From the NCBI GenBank assembly GCA_963790385.1, contig CAWBOG010000004.1, positions 11,945 to 75,944 of the forward strand: 64,000 nt of DNA, read 5' to 3'. This DNA is from an uncultured Ignavibacteriaceae bacterium (GTDB lineage Bacteria; Bacteroidota; Ignavibacteria; Ignavibacteriales; Ignavibacteriaceae). Every line of letters begins with the position of its first letter. The first letter of the stretch is position 1. Below the pieces are notes generated by a model, which saw only the letters and a program-made list of their open reading frames with translations, made no database searches and was not told the origin of the DNA. Position numbers and translations under genes: made by a program. Shown piece by piece: positions 14,809-64,000 of the stretch.

Positions 14809-16909
14809 TTACATTTCTTTCTCGGCAGTATGCATCTTACCTGCAACAAATTGCCCTTGATCGAGGTGATCTTTCGTCAAATAAACTATACCATCTTCGT
14901 TATGGGTTTCACCGAATATCGAATGAATTGATTTTAAACCACCAAGCCACTTTCGTTTATCTGAAAGGTAGATAAGATCCCCAATATTTGCTTTCATTTT
15001 TGCCATATCTGCCGTTGAAAAGTTAAGTGTATCATCATCACCAGATTTTAGTTTCAATCTGACTTCAACTTTTTTTCCCTCAGCATCATTTATTTTTCCA
15101 CCCTTAAAATATTTTTTTGTCTTGTCGAGTGACCAAACAGTTAAGCCATCCGTTTTTTCGATTTCGTTATATTCTATGAAATAGTCGGATGAAATTATTA
15201 CTGTAAATATCAAAAGAATAATTATTCCAAAGGACATGGTCAGAGATGTCAAATTAAAAACTATAATTGCTAAAAAAATCACAGCGAGAATCAGAATTCC
15301 AAACATTAGTGATCGGTGATTTGGCATTTTTCTAATATTAACGATAAGTTTTTGTTGCTGATTCTGAGTTATGGTAGCTAATACTGCAACAGCTATACAA
15401 ACAAAAAGATTGTATAGTGCACCTATATAAATGTAGGGGTGTTCTGGAATGTATTCAGTACCGTGCGCAAATATTTGAATTAATGGAACTGGATAATACA
15501 TCCCCAGAACCATCAATGCTACACCTCCAACAAAAGTTGAGATGACGGCAGTGTTGGTAAATTTTTTCCAGAAGATTCCAAAGAAAATTCCGACTACAAG
15601 TGGTGGAGTCAGATGTCGAATGAAAATATCCATGAGCTTCATATACAGTTGGGAAATAACTGAATGGAATTACAGCCAATACTCCCAAAATAGTAAATAT
15701 TGCTGTAGCAATTCTTGCAGACAAAAGTTCCTGCTTATCTTCTTCTTTCCACGTTAGTACTTTTTTAGATAACCATTTTTTTGCAGGGCGATGAACATCA
15801 TTAATGTAAATTGCTGCAATGGCATTTAGGAGCGTGTCTACTGTTGACATAAGTGCAGCCGTCAATGCAGCCATAATAAAACCAAATACTCCGGGATGTG
15901 AAATTACATTCGCCACTACCACAAAGATTGCATCAGGATCTGTATTTGGGCTAATAACTTCGAAGGATTTATTAGTGATATAGCTTTGCCAATCCATCCA
16001 GCATTTCCAACTACTATTGCCGAAATTGGTAACATAAACAGAATATTAAAAGTGGCAGCTTTTCTTCCTTCATCAACACTTTTGCATGACATAAATCGCA
16101 TTATCAAACCCATATTCATAAATAAAAATCCTATTGAACCGGCAACACCATCCTGCCAGAAAATTCCGACAAAGTTAAAACCGGGTGGTTCATTAAAATT
16201 TGCAAGAGGAAGTTTCCATTCGACTGGCAATAAATTCCAAAATATATCAAAACCACCCAGATAAGAAATACCTAAAAAGAAAACAAGTCCGCCTGCAAAT
16301 ATTAATATGAATCCCTGAGCCAGATCTGTGAAAATTACAGCAGTTTGACCCCCGTAAGTAATGTAAATACCAACGATCAAAGCAATGACACAAACCAAGA
16401 CCCATTAAAGTTATTTGAATATTAATACCGAATATTTCAAAGCTCGGCGGTAAAAGTGGAAGGATGGCTTTACCCATGGTTAACAATCCGATGCCGACAT
16501 AACCAATCATATAAAGCAGAAAAAGAATTGTTGCAAGAAATCGAGTAGCGGGAGAAAATCTTTTTTCAAAGTATTCAGGGATTGACCTGATTTTTGTATA
16601 GACTATTATTGGAAGCCAGCCGAAAATAAAAAATGGAAGAAAAAACCAGTCATTCATGTAAGTCATCGTGGATGATAGACCAGCTTCAAAACCTTTTGCA
16701 GAATATTTAATAAAACTATGACTTCCCACACCTGTAGCAACAATACTCATAGCAATAAGCCACCAGGCAAATCGCCTTCCACCAAAGAAAAAATCGTTTG
16801 TCGTTCGATTATATTTTCCAAAGTAGGAACCAAATAACATAATTCCGATAAAGTAAATAATCATTACTATCCAATCGGTTGAAGTGCCTATGCTATGATA
16901 TGTTTGCAT
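14809..16909 (-). pseudogene. sodium:solute symporter (SSS) family transporter with extra C-terminal soluble domain; three frame breaks
   Basis: Collinear ORFs 16247..16909, 15916..16398, 15455..15997 and 14809..15642 together give a ~13-TM SSS-like protein. It carries a ~110-aa hydrophilic tail (..KVEVRLKLKSGDDDTLNFSTADMAKMKANIGDLIYLSDKR..). Confidence 0.75.
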
Positions 16910-18399: not shown

Positions 18400-20091
18400 T
18401 CACATCGTTTGAGGTTTAATAAATTTACTTATAATAAATGCTCCTACAACTACTGTCAGACAGCCGACAACATTATACCAAAGAAAGGGAATTTCTGTAA
18501 AGATGTAACAATATAAAACCAATAATTCGGCAATTATTGCAGCAAGAAAAGTTGGTGTTCCGGAAACTTTTTTTAGATAAAAGGCAGTCAGAAAAATTCC
18601 CAAAATAGTTCCATAAACTAATGAACCAAGTATGTTTACTGCTTCGATAAGTGAACCAAGCTCTTTTGCGAGAAGTGCAAATAGGATTGCATATACACCC
18701 CAAAACATTGTAGCTAATTTTGAAATTTTCAGATATTGTCTGTCGTCCGCATCGTTTTTTATTAATCGTTTATAAAAATCTATTACGGTTGTTGATGCAA
18801 GAGCATTTAATTCTGCAGAGGTTGAAGACATCGAAGCCGATAGTATTGCAGCGATAAGTAATCCCACAAAACCGATCGGCAAAAAGTTTATAATGAAAGT
18901 GAGAAAAATAAAATTAGTGTCGTTGGAATCAGCATTCGGGTCATTATTTTTAATAATCTCAACAGCACTTTTTTTAAGTTCATCTGCTTCATTTTGTTTC
19001 TCAACAATGATTTGAGTTTGGGTTTCAATCGCTAATTTATCATCACTTTTAATTGAAGAGATAAGTGATTTTAATTCCTTCTGTTTCTCTTTATTTATTT
19101 CAGAATATTTATTTTCGATGGCTTCATATTCCGGGGCATAACTTCCTGATTTTACTTTAGCTTCTTCAACCGGATTGAAAAATAGTGGTGGAGTGACAAA
19201 CTGGAAAAAGACAAAAACCATAGCTCCGATAAATAAAATAATAAATTGCATTGGTATTTTGACTAACCCATTAGTAAGCAGTGCTAACCTGCTTTGTTTT
19301 ATGGAACTACCTGCAAGATATCTTTGAACCTGAGATTGATCAGTTCCGAAATATGAGAGCATTAAAAAAGTTCCACCGATAATTCCCGACCAAAAAGTAT
19401 AGCGATTATTTAAATCAAAAGTAAAATCAATTGCATTTAGTTTTCCCATTTTCCCCGCAATGTATACTGCATCAATTAATGATACTTCTTCCGGCAATTG
19501 AGAAATTAAAATAAAAAAAGCTGAAAACATTCCGACGGTAATTATCAACATTTGAAGAAAATGTGTTTTGTTTACTGCAACTGTTCCACCGACAGTAGTG
19601 TAAATTATGACCATAACACCAACAATGATAATTGTTATGTTCATTTCCCAACCAAGAATAACAGATAATATTAATGATGGAGCGTAGATCGTAAAGCCAG
19701 CCGCTAATCCTCTTTGTGTAAGAAACAATGCACTGCCGAGCATCCTGTTTTTTAAGTCGAGACGTTTTTCTAAATATTCGTAGGCTGTATAAACATTTAA
19801 CTTGTTATAGATGGGAACTGCTGTGATAGAAAGTATTATCATAGCGATAGGTAAGCCAAGATAAAATTGAACAAAGCGCATTCCGTCAACATAAGCTTGT
19901 CCCGGAGTTGAGAGGAATGTAATTGCACTTGCTTGCGTTGCCATAATTGATAACGCCACAAGCCACCATTTAGATGTTCTTCCTGCACGGAGATAAGTAT
20001 CAACATCAGCAGCATTTCTCGACTTCCAGGTTCCATAAATAACAACAAAACCGATGAAGCCTGACATCACAATCCAGTCGAGATTACTCAT
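18400..20091 (-). CDS. sodium:solute symporter (SSS) family transporter
   Basis: Intact 563-aa polytopic ORF with SSS-type N-terminus and a long hydrophilic loop (aa ~320-400). Confidence 0.8.
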   Translation of the reverse strand: MSNLDWIVMSGFIGFVVIYGTWKSRNAADVDTYLRAGRTSKWWLVALSIMATQASAITFLSTPGQAYVDGMRFVQFYLGLPIAMIILSITAVPIYNKLNVYTAYEYLEKRLDLKNRMLGSALFLTQRGLAAGFTIYAPSLILSVILGWEMNITIIIVGVMVIIYTTVGGTVAVNKTHFLQMLIITVGMFSAFFILISQLPEEVSLIDAVYIAGKMGKLNAIDFTFDLNNRYTFWSGIIGGTFLMLSYFGTDQSQVQRYLAGSSIKQSRLALLTNGLVKIPMQFIILFIGAMVFVFFQFVTPPLFFNPVEEAKVKSGSYAPEYEAIENKYSEINKEKQKELKSLISSIKSDDKLAIETQTQIIVEKQNEADELKKSAVEIIKNNDPNADSNDTNFIFLTFIINFLPIGFVGLLIAAILSASMSSTSAELNALASTTVIDFYKRLIKNDADDRQYLKISKLATMFWGVYAILFALLAKELGSLIEAVNILGSLVYGTILGIFLTAFYLKKVSGTPTFLAAIIAELLVLYCYIFTEIPFLWYNVVGCLTVVVGAFIISKFIKPQTM

Positions 20092-45139: not shown

Positions 45140-46456
45140 TTACTTTATTAAAATCATTTTTTTAGTATCGATAAAGTCACCTGCCTTTAGTTGATAGAAA
45201 TAAACTCCACTCGGAAGGTTCACTGCATTCCACGTCAATTCATAAGTTCCTGCCGGTTTTTCATCGTTGACTAATGTTTCTATCTCATTACCTAAAGCAT
45301 CGAAGACTTTAATCTGAACTTGAGAAGATTGAGGAACGGAATATTTAATTTTTGTACTTGGGTTAAAGGGATTGGGGTAGTTTTGAGAAAGAATATAACT
45401 CGATGGAATTTCTATTTGATTTTCTTCTACTGGAGTAACCTCGGTTAACAGTCTTCTCCAAATACCATTCTCAGTGCCGGCATATACGTAACCATTGTTA
45501 TCGAGTGTAAGTGCTTGAATATTTAAGTTTGTTAAACCCTCATTTCTTGAACCTAAACTGTCGCCTTCATCGGAGAAAAGAAATACACCCAAGCTATCTG
45601 TACCGATTAACATTCCTTCCGTTGAACCGCTTGAATATGATAAACCAACTTGGCTATTAAGTGATGATATTTTTGTCCAGGTACTGCACATATCAATAGT
45701 AATGAAAAGCTCAAAGCCACTTTTCATAATTATATTACCATTTGTAAAAAGGCCAAGCACATTTCCAGCCCACTCCATATTACTTTCCAATAAACTCCAG
45801 CTAATTCCATAATCTGATGATAGGTGAACAATGCTAAAACTAGAAAGAAAAATATACCATCGTCCAGCTGTCAAGACAAAATTGTTTCTAAAATCAAAAA
45901 TTTCTCCTCCATTTACATCATAACCAGGTGTTGACCAAGTTAGACCATCATCTGTTGATCTGGCTAATAAATGAACAGTGCCCCAGTTGCAATCAGATGC
46001 ATTTATATCACAATAAATAATACCTGTTGGACTAATTGTGATTTTTTCTGGCCACCTAAAACATGTAATTGAATCTAACAATTGTTCTCTTAAGTTCGAC
46101 CAAATCCAGGTGTCGCCATTATCTACTGAATAAAAAGCATGACGTAGATATGGACCAATTATTAGACTATCTTTGACCAGAAATACTTTCCCCGTTGGTG
46201 ATATTTCCACATCACGAGCGCACGAGTCAACTATCATTATCCAATTAGTTCCGCTGTCAGGAGAGCGATACACTTTTCCGCTATCCAAAGTAACAGCAAA
46301 GATTGTAGAGTTCTGAACAGCGATGTCTTTGATGACTTCATCATTAAGCCCAACTTGCACCCACTGTCCAAAACAAATTTGTGTTGTAAGCAAAAAGAAA
46401 AACAAAGTTTGTATTAACATTTTTCCCGCTGTGCGGGATTTCGTAGAACTCAACAT
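45140..46456 (-). CDS. secreted Asp-box (BNR/sortilin-like) beta-propeller protein with T9SS sorting domain
   Basis: 438 aa with Asp-boxes (SPDSGTNW, SVDNGDTW, STDDGLTW, SSDYGISW) and the SQNYPNPFNPSTKIKYSV...KKMILIK tail. The true start may be the internal ATG at 46420 (MLIQTLFFFLL signal peptide). Confidence 0.75.
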   Translation of the reverse strand: MLSSTKSRTAGKMLIQTLFFFLLTTQICFGQWVQVGLNDEVIKDIAVQNSTIFAVTLDSGKVYRSPDSGTNWIMIVDSCARDVEISPTGKVFLVKDSLIIGPYLRHAFYSVDNGDTWIWSNLREQLLDSITCFRWPEKITISPTGIIYCDINASDCNWGTVHLLARSTDDGLTWSTPGYDVNGGEIFDFRNNFVLTAGRWYIFLSSFSIVHLSSDYGISWSLLESNMEWAGNVLGLFTNGNIIMKSGFELFITIDMCSTWTKISSLNSQVGLSYSSGSTEGMLIGTDSLGVFLFSDEGDSLGSRNEGLTNLNIQALTLDNNGYVYAGTENGIWRRLLTEVTPVEENQIEIPSSYILSQNYPNPFNPSTKIKYSVPQSSQVQIKVFDALGNEIETLVNDEKPAGTYELTWNAVNLPSGVYFYQLKAGDFIDTKKMILIK

Positions 46457-54677: not shown

Positions 54678-55387
54678 TTATTCGGGAACGTGGACTAAGA
54701 AATATTTTTTTGCTGATTTACCAATTGCTACAGCTTCTTTCATTGTCATGTGCATATCATCGGGAGTTTCTTCATCATGTCCGGCTTCCAGAATAGCCAG
54801 ATCAGCATTACGCGCATGACTTACAATTGCTTCACAATAAGCTGTATCTCCTCCGTAACAAATAGTCTTACTATCAAAAACAAAGTTATATCCCAGCGCT
54901 GGTACCTGACGGGTTTTACCGGAGGCTAAATTTTCTTTATGTACCACTGGAAACGGTTTTACAGTTATGTTGCTTGAAGAAAAACCACTTGTTTTTTTGA
55001 TTGCTTTCAAATTAATCTTGTATGTAATACTTTTTGATACACTTTTTTAAAAGCATTATAAATACTTTCGATCTCAACACAACCTTCCGGGTAGTGGATT
55101 GTAAGTGGAGATGTTTTTTGCATTACCCGGAGATAGGTAAGAAGTGACCACACACCACCAACATGATCGTGATGACCATGAGTTATAAATACATCTGAAA
55201 TATTCAGAAGATTTTTTACTCCAATCTCTTTGTTCAAATCTCGTAGTATTCCGTCACCAGGATCAATTATGAAATGGGAATTTCCTGCTTTTAATAAAAT
55301 TCCGGTGGCAATGTTAGGGATTGAACAGAAAATTTTTATTGAAAAATTTTTTTTCTTCCAATGTAAGGGGTATTTTCGGTTTGTCAT
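54678..55387 (-). pseudogene. MBL-fold metallo-hydrolase, one frame break at ~55010
   Basis: ORF 55007..55387 carries ITHGHHDHVGG and ORF 54678..55010 carries the C-terminal half (..GDTAYCE..EAGHDEE..). Adding one T to the run at 55009..55011 (minus-strand TTT) restores ..TRLILKAIKK... Confidence 0.7.
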
Positions 55388-55839
55388 TATCCTCCGGATT
55401 GTTTACATTTTTTAGGGTCTTTGCATCGCCCAAAAATATTAAATGAGTAACTTTCAAAATTAAATCCCAATTCTTCACTTATTTGTTGTGGAAGTTGCTT
55501 GATCTTTGCATCAGCGAACTCAACTATCTTTCCGCAATCAACACAAATAAGATGATCGTGCCCCTGTCTTTTAAAACTGCTTTCAAAACGGTTTGTATTA
55601 TCTCCAAAATTTCTTTTTGAAAGTAGCTCACATTGTGCAAGCAACTCCAACGTTTTATAAACTGTTGCTCTGGATACTCTCGAATTTGAATTTTTCATTA
55701 GTACGTAAAGATCATCCGCATTGAAATGACCATCGTATTCAAGAGCTGCTTCAAGTACTTCAAATCTCTCAGGCGTAATTCTGTTCTTACCTGATTTAAG
55801 AAAATTTCTGAATATTTCTTCGGCTTGTTTGTTTTTCAA
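55387..55839 (-). CDS. fur: Fur family transcriptional repressor
   Basis: 150 aa with winged-helix N-terminus (RITPERFEVLEA...SRATVYKTLELL), HDHLIC.DCGK..EF and a C-terminal Cys pair. Adjacent to feoAB. Confidence 0.85.
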   Translation of the reverse strand: MKNKQAEEIFRNFLKSGKNRITPERFEVLEAALEYDGHFNADDLYVLMKNSNSRVSRATVYKTLELLAQCELLSKRNFGDNTNRFESSFKRQGHDHLICVDCGKIVEFADAKIKQLPQQISEELGFNFESYSFNIFGRCKDPKKCKQSGG

Positions 55840-55923
55840 TTATAGTCGATTCTGTTAATCTTAATATTCATATTATATAATCTATTCGGCAAAATAACGA
55901 TTTTTATCAAGTAAATAAACGTT

Positions 55924-57960
55924 TCATTGAATTCCTAGAAGTCTAAGTCCGTTGACGGTTACGAACGTAAGGACATAAGCCAGTGTTGTAAATATTACGA
56001 CCTGTAGGATAGGAATTTTCCACCCGCCAGTTTCTTTTTTTGAAACTGCAACTGTTGAAAGACATTGCAGCGCAAACATAAAAAAAACTATGAGTCCAAT
56101 GGATGTTGCAACCGTAAAAAGTTTGGCGCCAGTTGATTCAACTTTTGCACTTCTGAGTGAATTAAGCAAAGTGTTTTGATCATCACTATTTTCAGTAGTG
56201 ACTTTAAATGTAAGAGCTAATGAAGACACAAAAACTTCTCTTGCTGCAAATGCTGATATTAAAGAGACACCAATTCTCCAATCCATTCCAATTGGAGTCA
56301 TAAATGGCTGAATAATTTTTCCCAAATCAGAAGCATAAGAATGTTCAAGTCTTTCCGCGCGTTCAAGATTTTGAGTTTGTTCAGTAGTCAACCCGGTTTT
56401 CTCAACTTCCGGATTGATATTCGGAAAAAATGTTAAGAACCACAGAATAAGTGAAAATCCTAGAATAATTGGACCTGCTCTTAAAATATATTGTTTAGAA
56501 TTATTGTAAGTGTTGGTTATTACTGAACTTAATTTTGGGATTCGATAAGATGGCAATTCCAGAATAAAAGAGGACGTCTCATCTGCATTAAACAATTTTT
56601 TTGTGAATTTATTCATCACAGCTGCAACTATAATTGAACTGATCATACTGAAGAGATAAATTCCGCCCAATAATATTCCTCCCATCCATGCGTTTTCCTG
56701 TGGGATCAGATACGCAATTAGCAATGCATAAACAGGTAGTCTTGCACTGCAACTCATCAATGGAATTATGAAAATAGTAAATAATCTTTCTCTTCGATTT
56801 GGGATTGTTCGTGCGGCAATTATTGCAGGAATTGCGCATGCAAATCCTGAGAGCATTGGTACAAATGATCTTCCATTTAAACCTATTTTTGATAAAGGTT
56901 TATCAATCAACATTGCTCCACGAGCGAGGTAACCTGAATCTTCAAGCAAACCCAGAATGAGAAATAAAATGAGAATCTGAGGAACAAATACTAACACTGA
57001 ACCAGTGCCTGAAATAATTCCGTCCGAAACTAAAAAAGTGAACCAGCCCGAATCAAAATTTTCTACCACAAGCGAATTTAGATTCGTGAATAAACCATCC
57101 ACTAAATTCATCAGTGGCTGAGCAAGCCAGAAAATGCTTGTGAAGGTGATTCCCATAACAATAAGAAAAATCAGAAATCCCCAAATCCGATGAAGTAAAA
57201 CACTATCAATTTTAAGAGTAATTTCATCAGGAGAAAATCCATTATTATTTATATCTGCATCAAGAATTTTTAGTTCGTTATTAGCTGAAGTTAAATTAAT
57301 TTTTTCATTGCTGGCTAAAGATTCATAAACATCCTTGACAATGTCTTCTATTTTTTGAAAGCTATCCACTAAATCGTTTTTAGTATGCAGATAAGTATAT
57401 GGGATAATATTTTTTTGCTCTGTTCCATTATACTTAGATAGATTGGAGTTAATTGCATCTATTAATTTATCAATGCCTTGTTTTGTTCTTCCATTTATAA
57501 TAACGACATCACAGTTGAGTGCCTTACTTAATTTTTTTTCAGAAACCTTTAATCCACGCTTGGCAAGAATATCGTTCATCGTAACAACAAGTATGATATT
57601 AAATCCGGAATTAATTAATTGTTTTGGAAGCAACAAATGTCTAGATAGTTGACAGGAATCGACTGTACTAATAAGTAAATCTGGTGTACCTAATTTCGGA
57701 TGGGAGTACAATGATTCAACCGATATTTTTTCATCAATTGATTCGGGTAGTAAACTAACTATTCCAGGTGAATCTAAAAGTTCAGCATTGAGATTATATT
57801 TGGAAAGGAAACGGCTGGTATAATACTCTACCGTTGAGCCAGGGTAGTTGGAAGTCTTGTAATTTTTTCCACTTAATATATTAAATAAGGTAGTTTTTCC
57901 TGAGTTAGGAGGTCCGACCAAAGTTATGAGTGGGGTCTTGAGAGTTGTTTCACTTCTCAT
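55924..57960 (-). CDS. feoB: ferrous iron transporter FeoB
   Basis: 678 aa with N-terminal G-domain GPPNSGKTTLFN, DSPG, TMND, followed by a polytopic membrane domain. ATGA overlap with feoA. Confidence 0.9.
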   Translation of the reverse strand: MRSETTLKTPLITLVGPPNSGKTTLFNILSGKNYKTSNYPGSTVEYYTSRFLSKYNLNAELLDSPGIVSLLPESIDEKISVESLYSHPKLGTPDLLISTVDSCQLSRHLLLPKQLINSGFNIILVVTMNDILAKRGLKVSEKKLSKALNCDVVIINGRTKQGIDKLIDAINSNLSKYNGTEQKNIIPYTYLHTKNDLVDSFQKIEDIVKDVYESLASNEKINLTSANNELKILDADINNNGFSPDEITLKIDSVLLHRIWGFLIFLIVMGITFTSIFWLAQPLMNLVDGLFTNLNSLVVENFDSGWFTFLVSDGIISGTGSVLVFVPQILILFLILGLLEDSGYLARGAMLIDKPLSKIGLNGRSFVPMLSGFACAIPAIIAARTIPNRRERLFTIFIIPLMSCSARLPVYALLIAYLIPQENAWMGGILLGGIYLFSMISSIIVAAVMNKFTKKLFNADETSSFILELPSYRIPKLSSVITNTYNNSKQYILRAGPIILGFSLILWFLTFFPNINPEVEKTGLTTEQTQNLERAERLEHSYASDLGKIIQPFMTPIGMDWRIGVSLISAFAAREVFVSSLALTFKVTTENSDDQNTLLNSLRSAKVESTGAKLFTVATSIGLIVFFMFALQCLSTVAVSKKETGGWKIPILQVVIFTTLAYVLTFVTVNGLRLLGIQ

Positions 57961-58178
57961 TTCAACTTAATACAATCGGCTTCACTTTTTCTTAAAGCTA
58001 TAAGAGTTCCTCTAATTGACACTGCAATTGGATCATTAAAAAGTGATTGGTTTACTAATTCTATGATCTGACCAGGGGTAAATCCGTGTTCTATAATTCT
58101 TTTGCTAGAAGGATGTGAAACATCAATTTCCGAGATAATTCCGCATTCTTTAAGCTTTAATTCTGCAGCAGTTCTCAT
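57957..58178 (-). CDS. feoA: FeoA family iron transport protein
   Basis: 73-aa SH3-like FeoA pattern (..I.EI....S...R..E.GF.PG..IE......F.DPIAV.IRG..IALRK.EA..I.L). Confidence 0.85.
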   Translation of the reverse strand: MRTAAELKLKECGIISEIDVSHPSSKRIIEHGFTPGQIIELVNQSLFNDPIAVSIRGTLIALRKSEADCIKLK

Positions 58179-58381: not shown

Positions 58382-60025
58382 TTGAACGAGATCGAAACAA
58401 AAGCCACAGAAAATCACATCAAAACAGTTTCCGCAAATTTTCCAGCGATAAATTCTGATCAAGTATTTTATGATTACGATTGTCAAACCCAAAATTATAA
58501 GTTCATTACTCCAGGCGTAAGCAAATTGTTGGGTTATAACATTACGGAACTAAATGAGTTAAAATTTGAAAAATTAATTATTAGCCATTACGACGAGTAT
58601 AAAACTAAATATCCTCTTAATGGAAAATCTGATGGACCTCAAATCGAAGAAAAGTTAACTGTCTATCAAATTGAAACTAAAAATGGCGAACGTAAATGGA
58701 TCGAGGATAATTCGATTACACTTTATGATACGAATAATCTAAAAACCACTCGAATGGGTTTGTTTTGTGATGTCGGTGAAATGTTGCGCGAGGAAAAATT
58801 AAAACAGATAATTTTAGAGATCCTTGAAGCAGCCAATTCTGAGAAAAATTTAAGTGAGTTATTCAAGTTCATCCACACCTGTATAAAAAAATTAATGAAG
58901 GCAGATAATTTCTATATCGCTTATTACAAGCGTGACTCTGATCTTCTCACATTCCCATATTTTGTAGATGAAATTGATAATGATTCATCATCAAAAAAAC
59001 TTGGTAAAGGACTTACTGAATTTGTACTGAGAACAGGTAAATCTGCATTAGTAGATTTACTTAAAGACGAAGAGCTTAGAAAAAAAGGTGAAATAGAATT
59101 AATTGGGCCGCAGTCACCAATCTGGCTTGGAGTTCCTCTAAAAATAAAAGAAAAAACAATTGGTGTTTTGGTTGTTCAGGATTATAATGATCCCAGCACA
59201 TATACACCTGCTCATCAACAAATTCTGGATGTAATATCTTATCCTATCTCAAGAGCTATCGAAAGAAAAATTGTTGAAGAAGAACGAAAAGAGATGATTG
59301 TCAAACTGAAAGAAATGAATACGTCAAAAGATAGATTGTTTTCATTAATTTCACACGACCTTAGATCACCCTTTAATTCATTACTCGGTTTTGCTGAAAT
59401 TCTTAGAACAGATTTTGAGAATTTAACACACAGAGACATAAAAGAATATATCAATGTTATAAATGATTCCTCGAATACACTCTATGAGATGACAAACAAC
59501 CTTCTTCATTATTCCAAGCTACAGTTGAATAAATATGATTACATCCCCAAAAAATTGCTGGTCAATGAAATCATAAACGAAGCAATAGATTCACTAAAGT
59601 ACAGAATTAATAAAAAAAATATTTCTGTCAGGGTGGATTTAAAACAAAATTATTACATCGTAGCTGACGATGAGATGCTTGTTACTATTTTTAGAAATAT
59701 TATTTCGAATGCATTAAAATTTTCAGAACCACAAAGCACTATAAATATTCTTGCTGAAGAGTCAATTGACAATAGTACAAATGCTCCTGCAATCCAAATA
59801 AGTGTAACCGATGAAGGTATCGGAATCCCGGAAGAGAATCAGGTTCAGATTAAATCTGAAGTCATGTTTTCAACTCAGGGAACCGAGAGGGAACCGGGTT
59901 CCGGATTAGGATTATTACTCACAAAAAAATATGTTGATCTTAACAAAGGTAAGTTTGAAGTTATGAGTTTTACCGGGCAGGGGACTACTGTTGTTATCAC
60001 TTTTCCAGGATTGAAATTGACGTAG
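58382..60025 (+). CDS. PAS-GAF sensor histidine kinase (cytoplasmic)
   Basis: 547 aa with PAS-like N-terminus and a GAF-like middle. H-box LISHDLRSPFNS, N-box NIISNALKFS, G-boxes TDEGIGI and GSGLGLLLTK. The TTG start in the track makes the exact start uncertain. Confidence 0.8.
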   Translation: MNEIETKATENHIKTVSANFPAINSDQVFYDYDCQTQNYKFITPGVSKLLGYNITELNELKFEKLIISHYDEYKTKYPLNGKSDGPQIEEKLTVYQIETKNGERKWIEDNSITLYDTNNLKTTRMGLFCDVGEMLREEKLKQIILEILEAANSEKNLSELFKFIHTCIKKLMKADNFYIAYYKRDSDLLTFPYFVDEIDNDSSSKKLGKGLTEFVLRTGKSALVDLLKDEELRKKGEIELIGPQSPIWLGVPLKIKEKTIGVLVVQDYNDPSTYTPAHQQILDVISYPISRAIERKIVEEERKEMIVKLKEMNTSKDRLFSLISHDLRSPFNSLLGFAEILRTDFENLTHRDIKEYINVINDSSNTLYEMTNNLLHYSKLQLNKYDYIPKKLLVNEIINEAIDSLKYRINKKNISVRVDLKQNYYIVADDEMLVTIFRNIISNALKFSEPQSTINILAEESIDNSTNAPAIQISVTDEGIGIPEENQVQIKSEVMFSTQGTEREPGSGLGLLLTKKYVDLNKGKFEVMSFTGQGTTVVITFPGLKLT

Positions 60026-60405
60026 TATTGTGTCTTGAATATAAATCACTAACGAAATTTATCTGGATTTATTTATTACGATTACGGTAAATATTACCAA
60101 TATTTCCCTAATTTATATGTAAAAGATTTACCCGAGAATTTTTACTTTTTAATTTCAGCAAGCCTAATATCGTCAAAAATATTATGCAGCCGAGCCTCAT
60201 TCTTCCTTAATAAAATATCTTCCTTTCCTAAATCTCATTTTTCAAATCTTTTTTTCATATTTGACTTAGAATAATTCGCTGAACTTAACCGGCTACCTCT
60301 TAAAAATTGTTAAGGCTTAAGCCTGGAAATTGGCGACAAAAGTGGCATTGAATATGTTAAATAAGGGCGGTTGAGTTCATTTATTAATCATTTTGGAGTT
60401 CTATA

Positions 60406-60939
60406 ATGGAAATTGCAAAGATTGCATTCTTGGAAACATATACTTCAGAAGAGAGTGGTGGAATAATTGGGGCTATTCTCGTAACTGATGCAGAAACTAA
60501 ACCACTTGAGTTTAGAGTAACTTCTCCGATCAAACCAACAGGATTTCAAAAAACACTTTACGGAGATGTACTTCTTGAACATATTTTAGTTGAATTAATA
60601 TCAGTTCCATTGTTGAGTGCAATTAATGAGCATATTGATTTAATTATTGTAAAAGATCCTTTCTTTCTTGGGGCTAATAATAAACAGGGAATAAGAGTAG
60701 TAAGAGTTTTTAATGAAGCTGATGGAAAATCCCGTGCAAGTACAAAAGCCGAAGCGATTGCATTCCCGACAGCAGGTGGTGGAAAAATGATGATTGAAAC
60801 TTCCAAAAAATTCGAGACTGAATTGGCACCGATTAAAGATCAACTAAACAAATTAGCTGAACATAGGAATCTGCTTGAACCTTTCGAAAGACTGAAACTC
60901 GCATGCGAGCAGGTACAACAACAAAAGTCAATTGACTAA
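60406..60939 (+). CDS. 177-aa hypothetical protein, partner of the SNF2-like/Mrr-like gene
   Basis: ATG with GGAG 8 nt upstream. No TM or signal peptide and no family I can name. C-terminal predicted helix (ELAPIKDQLNKLAEHRNLLEPFERLKLACEQVQQQ). Its stop lies 5 nt before the next start. Confidence 0.6.
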   Translation: MEIAKIAFLETYTSEESGGIIGAILVTDAETKPLEFRVTSPIKPTGFQKTLYGDVLLEHILVELISVPLLSAINEHIDLIIVKDPFFLGANNKQGIRVVRVFNEADGKSRASTKAEAIAFPTAGGGKMMIETSKKFETELAPIKDQLNKLAEHRNLLEPFERLKLACEQVQQQKSID

Positions 60940-60944
60940 ATTAA

Positions 60945-63641
60945 ATGATTCAAAAAGTTCGTAGTAAAGTTGCCTCAAGAATTTCAAAAATTAAAGAGGT
61001 AGAAGATTTTAACTTTTCTAACTGGCTAAAAAAACCGGCTCAACACGACCATCCCCTGGAAGAATTAACCTCTCACGTAAGTAATCTGGAAGTCCAGATT
61101 GAATTCATACCTGCGGAATTTTTTAAATATAAAATCGGTATGATAGAACCGGATGTTACCGATGAATTAAAGAATTGTGAGTTTCCAAAAGTCAGAAGCA
61201 ATGCTATATTTTTTATGATTGCTCTTCCTGAAGAAAAAGGTGTCGTTTATTCGGAAGTTGAGCTTAAACCTAAAAGCTTTTCCAGCAAAAAAGTCAAGTT
61301 TCTACTTAATAATCCTGCTATTAAAAAAGGCAAAGTTCAGTTCGATATTAAACCACCACAAAATTATGAGTGCCAAATTGAACTACCGACAACTGTAAAT
61401 TATCTCAGTAATTTAATTCCTGAAATTTTCAAAATCGATTTGCTTGATTTTGAAGATCTGGTTTCTTCAGCTAAAAAAGTAAAAGTTCAGAATATAGGAC
61501 TGGAAAAATTTAAAAAAGCTAAAGTTGAAAAGCATAGTTTACCGGTTTTACCTGAACCAAAGAAAATTTTTCGAATTAAAATTCCCTCAATTGGTGTCTT
61601 TAAACTCACGGAACAAAAAATATCACTGTCACCTTTTACTCAACCATCAGTTTCCGAAGCTTCTGCATTCCAACTTTCAAAAGTTAAATCCTGGTATGCT
61701 AATTTTAACATCACAAAACCAGATACCACTTTATTTTACAGGTCGACATCAACAAAACGTGTCTCTAAAACTGATCAAAAATCTGAAGAACCAAATGTCC
61801 CTTCGAACATTCAAGAGCAATTGGGATTTATACTTAGCAACATCAGAAAAGTTGATTGGGAAAAATCAGGTAAATATACAACCAAGCTGAAATCGTTCGA
61901 AGAAGCGAGTGCAAAATTTTTAATTGAAAATGATTTTGCATTGTTGCAAGATGAATTCGGGATAGACATTCAAAAGGAAGCAATAGCAGCTTTAAAGTTA
62001 TTGTTTACTAACAGGGTCGTCAAATCTGCATTGATAATAACTGATGATACGAGTATCGGAAATCCAAAGTTTGCAAAACATTTAAACATAGAAATTGGAT
62101 GGAGCGATAAGATTAAGAAGTATTGTCCTGAGCTTTCACTGCAATTCATTGGAGGGAATAATGATGAAAGGGCGGACTTATGGATTAAATCGAAGTCAAT
62201 TATAATTGCGGATATCGATACGGCATTAAATGATTACCGATTAAAAATTCTTGAAGATAAAAGCTTGGAAAAATTTGATTGCATCATTCTTGATTCTGTT
62301 GATCAGCTTTTGTTGAGGAAAGAAACAAGAGAAGAACTACTATCTGCCATTCATCCAAAAATTCTATGGGCGACTACTTCTGTCCTGGATAAAAATCTTT
62401 ACCAGGAATTAAATACCCTTCTTAATTCTTCCGTTAAAATTGAAAAGGTTAAAGCGAGAAGCAAACAGTCGATGTCGGAAATATTACCTAAATTTTTATT
62501 GAATGAATTTTGGTGTGATGCTGATGAGAAGCAAGTGGGAGAATTTAAAACTGCACTTGTTGAATCTAAGAAGGATTTGAGAAGAGTTCTGGAGTCAGGC
62601 AATCCTTTAAGATTCTATGCGAATATTTTTACACTCTATCATAAGCTAAATCAAATTGCAAACTTCGCGTCGGGAAAATCTAAAAGCCCGAAGTCTGATT
62701 TACTATTTCATCATTTAGGTTTGATAAAAGAAAATGGCAAAAAAGTTCTTATCCTATCACAGTATGAAAAGCTTGGCATAAAGAAAATAAGTGAAATACT
62801 TACCAACGAAGGGATAAAGCACATAATTGCTCCGAATGCACTTTCTGTTGAAGATATGCAGAAAGCAATTTCAATGTTTCAATCGCAATCAGATATTGTG
62901 GCATTTGTTTCCGATGCAAAAATATCCAGATTAAAATTTTCTAACTTCGTTGTACCTTATTTAATAAAATTTGATCAATGGTGGAATCCGATATCCAATT
63001 GGGAATTAGAAGATCTTTTTGTAAAAGACGGTGATGAATCTTTAAAAGAAATTGTAAACATCTGTAATTATTATTCGAGTGAATCTTTGGATCAGAGAAT
63101 AAGAGAACTTCTGCTCGAAACCGATTTACTGAATAAAAATATTTTTGAGTTAATGCAGCCGAAGATATACGAAGAATTAATTCTGGTTGATGAATGGCTG
63201 CGCATATTTGGAATGCCCGTCAGCACTGAATCTAAAAATGAACAATCACCTGAGTCTGTTCAAACAGTTCTGAAAAAAATTACTATCGATGCGTTCAGAA
63301 AAATTCTTTCCAAGCTATTTACAATACTCGGATATTCTGAAGTCGATATTTTTGAACTACCAAACTCAAACTCTTTTAATATGGTTGGTAAATCTCAGAG
63401 AAATAACAGAGCTTTTTATCTTAATGCCCGTGTTTTTGTCGAAAGCAAAATAGATAAAAAAACTATTGAAAATATTCTATCAGAAACTTCTAAATCTAAC
63501 CAAGATAAAATATTCATTATAACAAGAGAAAGTTTCCCGGAAATAAGTACTGACAAGCTACGTGAAAATGTAACAATGTTAGATGGTCTTGCACTTTCCA
63601 AATTGCTCATCAGAGTAGGCATATTACCGACAGCTCCTTAG
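60945..63641 (+). CDS. 898-aa SNF2-like helicase-fold / Mrr-like endonuclease-fold fusion with substituted catalytic motifs
   Basis: Lys-rich N-terminal ~330 aa of unknown fold. The SNF2 N-lobe scaffold is present (LLQDEFGIDIQKEAIAAL in place of ADEMGLGKTIQAIA, FDCIILDSVDQLL in place of DEAH). C-lobe KVLILSQYEKLG...KFDQWWNP, then ELEDLFVKDGD instead of QAxDRxxRIGQ. C-terminal Mrr_cat-like FRKILSKLFTILGYSEV...NSFNM...LNARVF...IFIITRESF...MLDGLALSKLL. Confidence 0.65.
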   Translation: MIQKVRSKVASRISKIKEVEDFNFSNWLKKPAQHDHPLEELTSHVSNLEVQIEFIPAEFFKYKIGMIEPDVTDELKNCEFPKVRSNAIFFMIALPEEKGVVYSEVELKPKSFSSKKVKFLLNNPAIKKGKVQFDIKPPQNYECQIELPTTVNYLSNLIPEIFKIDLLDFEDLVSSAKKVKVQNIGLEKFKKAKVEKHSLPVLPEPKKIFRIKIPSIGVFKLTEQKISLSPFTQPSVSEASAFQLSKVKSWYANFNITKPDTTLFYRSTSTKRVSKTDQKSEEPNVPSNIQEQLGFILSNIRKVDWEKSGKYTTKLKSFEEASAKFLIENDFALLQDEFGIDIQKEAIAALKLLFTNRVVKSALIITDDTSIGNPKFAKHLNIEIGWSDKIKKYCPELSLQFIGGNNDERADLWIKSKSIIIADIDTALNDYRLKILEDKSLEKFDCIILDSVDQLLLRKETREELLSAIHPKILWATTSVLDKNLYQELNTLLNSSVKIEKVKARSKQSMSEILPKFLLNEFWCDADEKQVGEFKTALVESKKDLRRVLESGNPLRFYANIFTLYHKLNQIANFASGKSKSPKSDLLFHHLGLIKENGKKVLILSQYEKLGIKKISEILTNEGIKHIIAPNALSVEDMQKAISMFQSQSDIVAFVSDAKISRLKFSNFVVPYLIKFDQWWNPISNWELEDLFVKDGDESLKEIVNICNYYSSESLDQRIRELLLETDLLNKNIFELMQPKIYEELILVDEWLRIFGMPVSTESKNEQSPESVQTVLKKITIDAFRKILSKLFTILGYSEVDIFELPNSNSFNMVGKSQRNNRAFYLNARVFVESKIDKKTIENILSETSKSNQDKIFIITRESFPEISTDKLRENVTMLDGLALSKLLIRVGILPTAP

Positions 63642-63682
63642 CATGAATTTATCTGAGTATAAATTCTTCTCTCTTAGTAAAA

Positions 63683-64000
63683 TTAAAATTGCTCATCATA
63701 CTTCGTCCACAAAAACTCGCTTAATCCCCATGCTTGCTCAACAATTTCTGCTTGTAATTCCAAACAATAGTTTGTTAATATTTCCTTAGCTCTTTCTCTA
63801 TCAAGACTCCAGAACTCAAGAGCTTCAGCTTCAATTGCTTTTTGATTTGCAAATAGTTGTGCTTGCCATGGATCCCAAACCGCTCTAACATCGTATCTCA
63901 TATCTCCCCATCGTTGAGCTGCTAAAGTTCCAAGTTGATTAAAGGCCCACCACGCAGAGTTTCTTGAAAATCCCGTCACTCTTCCATCGGTAGAAGAAGT
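63683..64000 (-). CDS. C69-family dipeptidase-like protein, C-terminal part only (gene runs off the right edge)
   Basis: Open on the minus strand from the window edge (..TSSTDGRVTGFSRNSAWWAFNQLG..RWGDMRYDV...) to the stop at 63683. The family call rests on the by-eye WWAFN / RY..M..D pattern. Confidence 0.45.
   Translation of the reverse strand, partial: TSSTDGRVTGFSRNSAWWAFNQLGTLAAQRWGDMRYDVRAVWDPWQAQLFANQKAIEAEALEFWSLDRERAKEILTNYCLELQAEIVEQAWGLSEFLWTKYDEQF

What the first reader, a model, noticed from the sequence alone, without database searches (positions are those of the whole stretch)
60406..63641. Two-gene module: unknown 177-aa protein plus a catalytically 'dead' SNF2-like / Mrr-like fusion
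The 898-aa ORF keeps recognisable scaffolds of an SNF2 ATPase (N-lobe and C-lobe) and of a C-terminal Mrr-type endonuclease fold, but every catalytic position I can align by eye is substituted. Walker A GLGKT becomes GIDIQ, DEAH becomes DSVD, motif VI QAxDRxxRIGQ becomes ELEDLFVKDGD, the Mrr GGID Asp becomes Asn (SFNM), and QxK becomes NxR. It follows, 5 nt downstream, a 177-aa ORF with no family I can name, behind a 380-bp non-coding leader. It also has a ~330-aa Lys-rich N-terminal extension. Active SNF2+Mrr-like combinations are, to my recollection, seen in defence proteins such as ZorD, but no ZorABC-like genes are present here. The gene is intact in a window where many genes are frame-broken, which argues for a functional pseudo-enzyme (sensor, scaffold or decoy) rather than decay.
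Basis: partly seen in the sequence, partly recalled or inferred. Interest (0 to 1): 0.78.

Follow-up and report, generated by a model that had tools for sequence, protein, structure and literature searches.

The report
Dead SNF2–Mrr protein with conserved partner
Ignavibacteria carry a two-gene operon that pairs a very conserved small protein with an Endonuclease-V-like fold and a large relative of SNF2 motor/Mrr nuclease enzymes; the large protein has lost its catalytic residues yet is kept by selection, whereas the same undescribed pair in other bacteria is enzymatically intact.

Summary
Both ORFs (60406-60939 and 60945-63641) exist, 5 nt apart, behind a 380-nt leader.

- **Large protein.** It folds as an SNF2 two-lobe core plus an Mrr-like domain. 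Walker A (GIDIQKE), motif II (DSVD), motif VI (WELEDLF, no Arg) and the Mrr D…QxK site are all replaced, and the replacements are conserved across about 60 relatives.
- **Selection.** Both genes are under purifying selection: ω≈0.1 for the large protein in every domain, and 0.002-0.03 for the small one.
- **Pairing.** The pair is present in all Ignavibacteria species loci that have enough sequence, and in 49 of 52 metagenomic loci from other lineages. In those other lineages the partner carries canonical GxGKT/DExQ/TGTP motifs, with RDGGxD…QCK wherever the Mrr domain is present.
- **Decay series.** Catalytic death is therefore a derived state specific to Ignavibacteria, with a graded series of decay inside the class.
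- **Small protein.** It has no described family. It folds like Endonuclease V/PIWI and keeps its full family signature.
- **Locus.** In most Ignavibacteria the operon sits beside feoAB-fur behind a conserved σ54-like element.

Best reading: this is a domesticated, non-enzymatic derivative of an undescribed sensor + motor + nuclease module. It is not Zorya, DISARM, Dpd or Hma. The function remains inferred.

The parts
60343..60356 (+). σ54-like -24/-12 element TGGCATTGAATATG (consensus here TGGCA[CT]-N5-[AT]TG), 63 nt upstream of the small gene's ATG
   Evidence: Present within 130 nt upstream of the small gene in 72 of 79 Ignavibacteria species loci, against a background of 0.0012 per window. 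Its position is mostly fixed at -61 to -69. The function is inferred from resemblance to TGGCAC-N5-TTGC. The -12 C is not conserved.
60368..60377 (+). Conserved 5'-leader block CGGTTGAGTT (window clade only); unexplained
   Evidence: Invariant in window, L001 and L002, and in most loci from L011 to L034.
60395..60398 (+). GGAG Shine-Dalgarno of the small gene
   Evidence: GGAG lies 7-10 nt before the ATG in essentially all Ignavibacteria loci. No comparable site precedes the large gene.
60406..60939 (+). Small subunit, 177 aa: undescribed family with an Endonuclease V/PIWI-type RNase H-like fold. Family signature: D28, P33, E35-F36-R37, T39, Q48, Y52-G53, E158-P159-F160-x-R162
   Evidence: No Pfam, NCBIfam, PADLOC, PHROG or PDB-sequence hit. 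The family has 902 clusters at 50% identity. AF2 pLDDT is 88.6. Foldseek gives EndoV at E 1.6e-6, probability 1.0, and EndoV is also the top viral hit. Signature conservation was measured over 176 diverse representatives. ω = 0.002-0.03.
60945..63641 (+). Large subunit, 898 aa: lineage-specific N-terminal domain + degenerate SNF2 N-lobe and C-lobe + degenerate Mrr-like domain
   Evidence: ω ≈ 0.08-0.10.
60945..61874 (+). N-terminal domain (aa 1-310), Lys-rich, specific to Ignavibacteria versions; fold unresolved
   Evidence: An HMM of this region finds all Ignavibacteria versions (E 1e-19 to 1e-34) but not the 177-236-aa N-termini of active outgroups. AF2 pLDDT is below 50. ω = 0.09-0.18.
61875..62444 (+). 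Degenerate SNF2 N-lobe (aa 311-500), with ex-Walker A GIDIQKE (aa 339-345, nt 61959-61979) and ex-motif II DSVD (aa 450-453, nt 62292-62303)
   Evidence: High-confidence RecA-like lobe. ω = 0.05-0.08.
62445..63179 (+). Degenerate SNF2 C-lobe (aa 501-745), with retained motif IV LSQY and the FDQWWNP block, and ex-motif VI WELEDLFVKDGD (aa 686-697, nt 63000-63035) lacking both arginines
   Evidence: (residue-level alignment to SsoRad54).
63273..63608 (+). Degenerate Mrr_cat domain (aa 777-888): catalytic Asp replaced by N812 (nt 63378-63380), Q-x-K replaced by R829-V-F831
   Evidence: Pfam PF04471, 25.5 bits against a cut-off of 21. Alignment to the active relatives L008 (GDGGMDV…AQCK) and L010 (HDEGIDV…AQCK).

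Best explanation
The locus is a σ54-type-promoter-driven, two-gene operon inherited vertically throughout Ignavibacteria.

It descends from a widespread, so far undescribed prokaryotic module with two genes. The first encodes a small protein (about 175-200 aa) with an Endonuclease V/PIWI-type RNase H-like fold. The second, immediately downstream, encodes an SNF2 ATPase that in about half of lineages carries a C-terminal Mrr-type PD-(D/E)xK nuclease.

By analogy with other combinations of an RNase-H-fold recogniser, an SF2 motor and a restriction-endonuclease-fold nuclease, the ancestral module most likely works as follows. The small subunit recognises a nucleic-acid feature, and the large subunit translocates on DNA and cuts it. 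This step is inferred.

In Ignavibacteria the large subunit lost the motif VI arginines and the Mrr Q-x-K, then Walker A and DExx. It also carries a 310-350-aa N-terminal domain not detectable in the active outgroups. The small subunit kept every signature residue and is under extreme constraint.

The large protein here is therefore a pseudo-enzyme. It is a folded scaffold that cannot hydrolyse ATP or cleave DNA, probably still binds DNA, and partners the small subunit, which carries the conserved function. The complex probably acts by binding rather than cutting, as a regulated nucleic-acid-binding or regulatory factor, not as a restriction-like enzyme.

Shown: the anatomy, homology, motif loss, selection, pairing, synteny and promoter-like element. 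Inferred: complex formation, DNA binding, and the non-catalytic mode of action.
For: 1. **Pairing.** A large ORF of about 900 aa follows the small gene at -1 to +27 nt in every Ignavibacteria species locus with enough downstream DNA. The same holds in 9 individually inspected loci outside Ignavibacteria or at its margin and in 49 of 52 metagenomic loci.
2. **Catalysis elsewhere.** Outside Ignavibacteria the partner is canonical: GxGKT or QTGKT, DE.Q, [ST][GA]TP, R..R.GQ, and RDGG[IV]DV…QCK where an Mrr domain is present.
3. **Graded decay inside the class.** Deep lineages keep GTGKT/GMGKT, intermediates have G[YSI]DK..Q, and the window clade has GIDIQKE and DSVD.
4. **Replacement motifs are conserved**. 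Scaffold residues are invariant across dead and live members, including R505, K507, S581, K583, Y607, W680 and P682, with Q606 nearly invariant.
5. **Purifying selection** acts on every domain.
6. **Fold.** The SNF2 and Mrr regions are predicted confidently, and the best PDB match is SsoRad54.
7. **Asymmetric divergence.** The small subunit stays 66-99% identical while the large one falls to 24-27%. The small subunit keeps the pan-family signature.
8. **Core locus.** feoA, feoB and fur are adjacent in 60 of 80 loci. No copies were found on plasmids or phages.
9. **Promoter-like element.** A σ54-like element lies upstream in 72 of 79 loci, against 0.0012 expected.
10. **Operon structure.** There is no promoter-like or terminator-like site between the genes, and the gap is 5 nt.
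Against: - No direct evidence that the two proteins bind each other.
- The N-terminal 300 aa could not be modelled.
- The EndoV link rests on fold only, with moderate TM-scores (0.5-0.63). Profile comparison with E. coli EndoV was not significant.
- The small protein lacks the canonical β1 acidic residue, so whether it is catalytic is open.
- dS is near saturation (about 1-2), so the ω values are approximate.
- The -12 part of the σ54-like element is imperfect, and rpoN and an activator were not located.
- The function of even the active module is unknown. Its neighbourhoods are mostly housekeeping, with only occasional defence-type genes.
Confidence: 0.6

Rival explanations
1. It is still an anti-phage or anti-plasmid defence system, in which the dead SNF2-Mrr subunit works as a sensor, decoy or scaffold that triggers the small subunit or another effector.
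For: The nearest PADLOC families of the active relatives are ZorD, DpdE and DrmD. One active locus (L010) lies beside DO-GTPase, GAP1-N1 and PNP_UDP_1 conflict genes. A few methylase and PDC hits occur among the neighbours. The large subunit diverges quickly. Snf2 + PD-(D/E)xK fusions do defend, as in HmaA (PMC11232893) and ZorD (PMC11946911).
Against: In Ignavibacteria the pair is single-locus, syntenic and present in every species sampled. That is unlike the patchy, island-borne distribution of defence genes. The small subunit is as conserved as a housekeeping protein (ω 0.002-0.03). ω for the large subunit is about 0.1, with no sign of an arms race. No PADLOC hit was found for either window protein beyond a weak DpdE C-lobe match. 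No plasmid or phage copies were found. Most neighbourhoods of the active module are housekeeping.
Confidence: 0.17
2. The small subunit is the real enzyme, an atypical RNase-H-fold nuclease that uses D28, E35, E63 and E158. On this view the motor and Mrr nuclease became dispensable in Ignavibacteria, so the operon is still catalytic through the small protein and the large protein only targets it.
For: E35 and E158 are about 95% conserved and D28 about 84% across 176 diverse representatives. About half of the active partners lack an Mrr domain altogether, so Mrr is dispensable for the module. The fold family (EndoV, PIWI, NurA) is mostly made of nucleases.
Against: There is no conserved acidic residue on β1, where all RNase H-like enzymes place the first catalytic Asp. 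The conserved residues pair with arginines (E-F-R and E-P-F-x-R), which looks more like a binding or structural constellation. There is no sequence-level match to EndoV.
Confidence: 0.15
3. The large protein retains cryptic ATPase or nuclease activity through non-canonical residues, so it is not really dead.
For: Deep Ignavibacteria lineages keep Walker A, DE.., and in some the first motif VI Arg (QAEER). Intermediates keep the Walker Lys (G.DK). A conserved K344-E345 follows the ex-P-loop.
Against: In the window clade several things are true at once. The P-loop Gly is replaced by Asp, the Lys and Thr are gone, the DExx Glu is Ser, TGTP is lost, both motif VI arginines are lost, and Mrr D/Q/K are all replaced. 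The ex-Lys position in Mrr varies freely across the family.
Confidence: 0.05
4. It is a decaying relic or pseudogene, or the motif 'loss' is an alignment artefact.
For: The window contains at least one frame-broken gene. Pfam fails to detect SNF2 domains in the window protein.
Against: Intact ORFs of about 900 aa occur in about 70 species. ω is about 0.1 in all domains. The replacement motifs are conserved. The alignment is anchored by flanking invariant blocks, by HMMER alignment to SsoRad54, and by structure.
Confidence: 0.02

Closest known systems
SNF2/Rad54-type ATPase core (Sulfolobus SsoRad54cd, PDB 1z63; Pfam SNF2-rel_dom + Helicase_C)
   Same: Two RecA-like lobes with SNF2-specific insertions. 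It is the best structural and profile match. Motif IV and the FDxWWNP block are retained.
   Different: Walker A, DExx, TGTP and the motif VI arginines are all replaced in the window protein. Pfam thresholds are not reached by the window protein itself.
ZorD of type I Zorya (also DpdE and DrmD): defence SNF2 proteins
   Same: These are the nearest PADLOC families to the active relatives of the large subunit (E about 1e-75, SNF2 region). ZorD is a Snf2-domain protein with nuclease activity that depends on its DEAQ box (PMC11946911).
   Different: No ZorA, ZorB or ZorC (nor Dpd or Drm partners) lie nearby. The match covers only the SNF2 domain. The window protein itself gives no ZorD hit. The partner here is a small EndoV-fold protein unknown in those systems.
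HmaA (Hma system): Snf2 helicase with a C-terminal PD-(D/E)xK nickase (PMC11232893)
   Same: The same architectural idea as the active relatives: an SNF2 motor fused to a C-terminal restriction-endonuclease-fold nuclease.
   Different: The HmaA nuclease is DUF3883, not Mrr_cat. Its partners are HmaB (methyltransferase) and HmaC (ATPase). It resides in defence islands. PADLOC HmaA hits to the active relatives are weak and cover only the C-lobe.
Mrr-type restriction endonuclease domain (Pfam PF04471)
   Same: The C-terminal domain matches above the Pfam cut-off and has the αβββαβ core. Active relatives have GDGGxD…QCK.
   Different: The catalytic D, Q and K are all substituted in every Ignavibacteria version.
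Endonuclease V / PIWI / NurA branch of the RNase H-like fold
   Same: Best structural matches of the small subunit.
   Different: No sequence-level similarity. It is shorter (177 aa against about 225). The canonical catalytic residues are not conserved.
pPIWI-RE triads (REase + DinG helicase + PIWI-RE; Burroughs et al. 2013, PMC3702460)
   Same: Functional analogue: an RNase-H-fold recognition module encoded with an SF2 helicase and a restriction-endonuclease-fold nuclease in a tight operon. It offers a model for how the ancestral active module could work.
   Different: Different families (DinG rather than SNF2; a large MID-PIWI protein rather than a 177-aa protein). It has three genes in a different order, and it is active rather than degenerate.

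Membership tests
SNF2 family ATPase | Two-lobe RecA-like SNF2 fold and detectable sequence homology | tested here: met
   Family profile against PDB 1z63, E 1e-37. Window C-lobe against 1z5z, E 3e-4. Model against 1z63, E 1.5e-19, TMt 0.67. Relative P0052 passes the Pfam SNF2-rel_dom and Helicase_C cut-offs. The window protein itself gets no Pfam SNF2 hit.
SNF2 family ATPase | Walker A GxGK[TS] (motif I) | tested here: not met
   G339-IDIQKE, conserved as G[IL]Dxx[KR]E in the window clade.
SNF2 family ATPase | Motif II DExx (DEAH/DEAQ) | tested here: not met
   D450-SVD. There is a gradient DEAQ > DEVH > DDAH > DSVD across the family.
SNF2 family ATPase | Motif VI arginine fingers (DRxxRxGQ) | tested here: not met
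   WELEDLFVKDGD. No Arg at either position in any group A member.
Mrr_cat restriction endonuclease (PF04471) | Profile match above the curated cut-off | tested here: met
   25.5 bits against a cut-off of 21, aa 777-888.
Mrr_cat restriction endonuclease (PF04471) | Catalytic D … (Q/E)xK | tested here: not met
   The Asp is replaced by N812. Q and K are replaced by R829 and F831. The position is variable across the family.
Zorya type I | ZorA/ZorB (MotAB-like) and ZorC genes adjacent to ZorD | tested here: not met
   The neighbours are feoAB, fur, a GAF histidine kinase, peptidase C69, a tRNA synthetase and nuo genes. The window protein has no PADLOC ZorD hit.
DISARM / Dpd / Hma | Partner genes (DrmA/B/C/MI; DpdA-K; HmaB/HmaC) in the locus | tested here: not met
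   None appear among the called genes of L001-L010, L091 or L092. The only hit is a weak DpdE C-lobe match, E 0.007.
Endonuclease V (small subunit) | EndoV-type RNase H-like fold | tested here: met
   Foldseek 6ozj, E 1.6e-6, probability 1.0, TMq 0.53; 3ga2, TMq 0.63. The top BFVD hit is EndoV.
Endonuclease V (small subunit) | Sequence-profile membership (Pfam Endonuclease_5) and the catalytic D/E/D(H) set | tested here: not met
   No Pfam or PDB sequence hit. hhalign against E. coli Nfi (sequence recalled from memory) gave probability 1.5%. There is no conserved acid on β1.
pPIWI-RE triad | DinG-type helicase + separate REase gene + MID-PIWI-RE protein | tested here: not met
   The helicase here is SNF2, the nuclease is fused to it, and the small protein is 177 aa without a MID domain. 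The family definition is taken from PMC3702460.
σ54-dependent promoter | -24 GG and -12 GC elements at fixed spacing (TGGCAC-N5-TTGC), plus rpoN and an activator in the genome | tested here: inconclusive
   TGGCA[CT]-N5-[AT]TG is found in 72 of 79 loci at a fixed distance. The -12 C is present in only some loci (the window has TGT). No activator lies in the window. rpoN could not be searched for.

The most novel reading that the evidence does not exclude
The small EndoV/PIWI-fold protein plus SNF2 (± Mrr) pair may be a previously unrecognised, phylogenetically broad prokaryotic nucleic-acid surveillance or repair system, with at least 900 clusters at 50% identity. On this reading, Ignavibacteria preserve a class-wide exaptation of it. 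The motor-nuclease subunit was converted stepwise into a non-enzymatic, DNA-binding scaffold under σ54 control, while the recogniser subunit was frozen by selection. That would be a bacterial example of a remodeller-type ATPase becoming a dedicated pseudo-enzyme with a regulatory or chromosome-associated housekeeping role.
Probability: 0.3. Interest if true: 0.8.

Novelty: new variant of a known kind. Interest (0 to 1): 0.62.

Why it matters
- **An undescribed module.** It exposes an unannotated two-gene module that is widespread in bacteria. Every member is named 'hypothetical protein', and the small subunit has no Pfam, NCBIfam, PADLOC or PHROG family.
- **A natural dissection series.** The series runs from fully canonical forms, through Walker A-only and Lys-only forms, to the fully dead form. 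It could be used to separate what the small subunit does from what the motor and nuclease do.
- **A rare kind of pseudo-enzyme.** To my knowledge, pseudo-enzymes derived from SNF2 ATPases have not been described in bacteria. One that is conserved across a whole class, under purifying selection and behind a conserved regulated promoter, argues for a real non-catalytic function.
- **A caution for annotation.** Defence-system annotation by domain architecture alone (SNF2 + Mrr) would mislabel this locus.

Tried and rejected
- **Family searches on the small protein.** Pfam, NCBIfam, PADLOC, PHROGs and PDB-sequence searches found nothing.
- **EndoV at sequence level.** hhalign of the small-protein family against E. 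coli EndoV (sequence from memory) was not significant. The EndoV relation is kept as fold-level only.
- **Mobile elements.** tblastn of two active-type small proteins against plasmids, and of one of them against phages, gave no match.
- **RNA elements.** Rfam over 59500-64000 found nothing, and there was no σ70-like promoter in the leader.
- **Automatic locus retrieval.** The search for related loci with a very diverse alignment failed because no stretch was conserved enough. I replaced it with a hand-built degenerate DNA pattern.
- **Taxon names.** Cluster-member look-up returned only 'hypothetical protein'.
- **σ54 support.** A literature search for σ54 in Ignavibacterium found nothing. A search for a σ54 activator among window ORFs found none.
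- **N-terminal domain.** There is no significant similarity to the N-termini of active outgroups, and the AF2 model is unresolved there.
- **Systems considered and rejected.** Zorya, DISARM, Dpd, Hma and pPIWI-RE membership were rejected because the defining partner genes are absent.
- **Pseudogene decay.** Rejected on dN/dS and on ORF integrity across species.
- **Fur box.** A Fur-box reading of the upstream motif was rejected, because it is not AT-palindromic and it matches the σ54 -24 element.

Full report
**1. The observation**

They are separated by 5 nt, ATTAA, and follow a 380-nt intergenic leader. No promoter-like or terminator-like site lies between them.

Pfam finds only Mrr_cat in the large protein (aa 777-888, 25.5 bits against a cut-off of 21). 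It finds nothing in the small one. PADLOC and NCBIfam give only faint C-lobe helicase matches.

**2. Homology and motif states of the large protein**

A database search returned about 64 full-length relatives of roughly 900 aa at 40-99% identity, all from Ignavibacteria-type MAGs. It also returned three distant relatives that have normal SNF2 Pfam domains.

| Motif | Canonical relatives | Window protein |
|---|---|---|
| Walker A (I) | GTGKT / GLGKT | G339-IDIQKE |
| Motif II | DEAQ / DEAH | D450-SVD |
| Motif III | TGTP | TTSV |
| Motif VI | AEDRxHRxGQ | W686-ELEDLFVKDGD |

Two relatives from other lineages carry textbook Mrr sites: L008 has GDGGMDV…IAQCK and L010 has HDEGIDV…IAQCK. Aligned to them, the window has SFN812MVG…NA-R829-V-F831. 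The Asp is Asn, and neither Q nor K survives.

The replacements are themselves conserved (G[IL]Dxx[KR]E and WE[LVI]ED[MIL]F), while the former Mrr Lys position varies freely. Several lines show SNF2 descent:
- The family profile matches SNF2 structures (1z63, E 1e-37).
- The window C-lobe alone matches SsoRad54 (E 3e-4), with FDQWWNP aligned to FDRWWNP.
- The AF2 model is confident from residue ~310 to 898 and matches 1z63 at E 1.5e-19, TMt 0.67.

The first ~300 residues could not be modelled.

**3. Dead but maintained**

I ran Nei-Gojobori comparisons with six related species. The small gene gives ω = 0.002-0.03 and the large gene gives ω = 0.08-0.10. Each region of the large gene lies between 0.05 and 0.18: the N-terminal domain, N-lobe, C-lobe and Mrr-like domain. 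dS is about 1-2, so these values are approximate.

The large ORF is intact in about 70 species-level genomes. Residues invariant across both dead and live members include R505, K507, S581, K583, Y607, W680 and P682, and Q606 is nearly invariant. From what is known of SNF2 structures, these are scaffold or DNA-contact positions rather than ATP-site residues. This pattern is that of a pseudo-enzyme, not of a decaying gene.

**4. The small protein**

It matches no family in Pfam, NCBIfam, PADLOC or PHROGs and no PDB sequence. All source names are 'hypothetical protein'. It is nevertheless a large family, with 902 clusters at 50% identity at E ≤ 1e-3.

The AF2 model (pLDDT 88.6, pTM 0.86) has β-β-β-α-β-α-β topology plus two C-terminal helices. 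Its best structural matches are Endonuclease V (E 1.6e-6, probability 1.0, TMq up to 0.63), then Argonaute PIWI domains and NurA. In the viral library the top hit is again an Endonuclease V. Profile comparison with E. coli EndoV, whose sequence I recalled from memory, was not significant.

Over 176 diverse representatives (median 32% identity to the window protein) the conserved signature is F8, G22, L25, T27, D28, P33, E35-F36-R37, T39, P44, Q48, L51-Y52-G53 and E158-P159-F160-x-R162. There is no conserved acid on β1. The canonical RNase H/EndoV catalytic set is therefore not evident. The window copy keeps every signature residue.

**5. The pair is ancient, and elsewhere it is enzymatically intact**

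The same gene order and near-abutting spacing appear next to several distant relatives:
- the intermediate relative P0065;
- cyanobacterial P0066 and a Microcoleus genome;
- five other diverse lineages.

Their small proteins are 32-49% identical to the window's, and often exactly 177-178 aa long.

I then scanned metagenomes with a degenerate DNA pattern for the small-protein signature. Of the 52 loci with at least 600 nt downstream, 49 have an SNF2-family ORF directly after the small gene. Their motifs are canonical: GxGKT or QTGKT, DE.Q, [ST][GA]TP, and mostly R..R.GQ. In 16 of them the Mrr site reads RDGG[IV]DVIA…QCK, and about half lack an Mrr domain. The active partners' best PADLOC matches are ZorD, then DpdE and DrmD, over the SNF2 region only.

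**6. A decay series inside Ignavibacteria**

A scan of one genome per species found 173 genomes with the signature. The best 80 are all Ignavibacteria, including Ignavibacterium album. Every locus with enough sequence carries the pair. The small protein stays 66-99% identical while the large one drops to 24-27%. The motif table shows three stages:

| Stage | Loci | Walker A | Motif II | Motif VI |
|---|---|---|---|---|
| Deep lineages | L077, L082-L090 | GTGKT / GMGKT retained | DE.. | first Arg sometimes retained |
| Intermediate (Ignavibacterium-type) | L042, L044-L076, L078-L080 | G[YSI]DK..Q | DEL / DEF | arginines lost |
| Window clade | window, L001, L011-L016 | GIDIQKE | DSVD | arginines lost |

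The remaining group A lineages (L002, L017-L043) fall between the last two stages. The Mrr QxK site is lost in all of them.

All Ignavibacteria versions share a 310-350-aa N-terminal domain (E 1e-19 to 1e-34). It is not detectable in the 177-236-aa N-termini of the active outgroups.

**7. Genomic setting and regulation**

In 60 of 80 Ignavibacteria loci, feoA, feoB and fur lie just upstream. That is every group A locus with enough flanking sequence. The deep Walker A-retaining lineages sit elsewhere. The GAF histidine kinase between feoA and the pair is limited to the window's wider clade.

The leader is otherwise unconserved. The exception is TGGCA[CT]-N5-[AT]TG about 61-69 nt before the ATG (window 60343-60356), found in 72 of 79 loci against 0.0012 expected per window. 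The seven loci without it are all Walker A-retaining lineages. The element resembles a σ54 -24/-12 promoter, but the -12 C is not conserved, and I could not locate rpoN or an activator. The σ54 reading is therefore an inference.

The small gene has a conserved GGAG and the large gene has none. This suggests translational coupling, or lower output of the large subunit.

**8. Is it defence?**

The evidence for defence is limited:
- The active SNF2 partners resemble ZorD, DpdE and DrmD.
- One active locus abuts DO-GTPase, GAP1-N1 and PNP_UDP_1 genes.
- Among 60 neighbour ORFs from 12 active loci there are a few methylase or candidate-system hits.

The evidence against is stronger:
- Most neighbours are housekeeping genes: rpoBC, secA and rpsO; rsfS and gdh; radA, dus and msrA; glycosidases.
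- No plasmid or phage copies were found.
- The Ignavibacteria version is a fixed core locus with a near-invariant small subunit.
- None of the defining partners of Zorya, DISARM, Dpd or Hma is present (PMC11946911, PMC11232893).

The pPIWI-RE triads (REase + DinG + PIWI-fold protein; PMC3702460) are the best functional analogue of the ancestral module. They combine the same three kinds of parts from different families.

**9. Conclusion**

The larger picture is as follows:
- The pair is an undescribed, widespread module of a recogniser, a motor and often a nuclease.
- Ignavibacteria carry a domesticated version whose large subunit has become a selected pseudo-enzyme behind a conserved σ54-like element.
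- The small subunit retains the ancestral signature under extreme constraint.
- The mode of action, a non-catalytic nucleic-acid-binding complex with the large subunit as scaffold, is inferred and needs biochemistry.

Noticed in passing
window 60343-60356 (and about -61 to -69 upstream of the small gene in L011-L080): A conserved TGGCA[CT]-N5-[AT]TG element resembling a σ54 -24/-12 promoter occurs in 72 of 79 Ignavibacteria loci. It is missing from exactly those lineages whose large subunit keeps an intact Walker A (L077, L082-L086, L088).
   Followed up: yes
window 60368-60377: A second conserved leader block, CGGTTGAGTT, lies between the σ54-like element and the GGAG site. It is invariant in the window's wider clade and unexplained.
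   Followed up: no
window 14809-16909 (-): A sodium:solute symporter (SSF) gene is split into at least three overlapping-frame ORFs that match consecutive parts of the Pfam model. An intact SSF paralogue lies at 18400-20091. It is either a genuine pseudogene or long-read indel errors. Related MAG contigs (L002) also show split nuo genes.
   Followed up: partly
window 60395-60398 versus 60925-60944: The small gene has a conserved GGAG Shine-Dalgarno, while the large gene, 5 nt after the small gene's stop, has none. This suggests translational coupling or unequal stoichiometry.
   Followed up: partly
L097, L101, L108, L120, L125, L127, L153 (metagenome loci): A soil or peat clade of partners of about 830-900 aa has a variant Walker A (VQTGKT) and a motif VI with a single Arg (GRILGIGQ), but a canonical Mrr site (RDGG[IV]DVIA…QCK). 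It may be a second, partial departure from the canonical ATPase.
   Followed up: no
L010:157-5294: DO-GTPase1/2, GAP1-N1 and PNP_UDP_1 genes, a predicted conflict system, lie immediately upstream of an active small + SNF2-Mrr pair. This is the only clear defence-type neighbourhood seen.
   Followed up: no
L025 (JAHIYS010000144.1): A contig labelled 'Gammaproteobacteria bacterium' carries an Ignavibacteria-type small protein (82% identical), and the downstream ORF is cut to 422 aa. The contig is probably mis-binned and has a frameshift.
   Followed up: no
window 6257-7855, 12166-14055, 45140-46456: Three proteins have type IX secretion C-terminal sorting domains (Por_Secre_tail), consistent with an origin in the FCB group / Ignavibacteria.
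   Followed up: no
window 55387-58178 and 58382-60025: A feoA-feoB-fur cluster is divergently oriented to the pair in most Ignavibacteria. In the window's clade a GAF-HisKA-HATPase histidine kinase is inserted between them. A possible link to iron or oxidative stress was not tested.
   Followed up: partly
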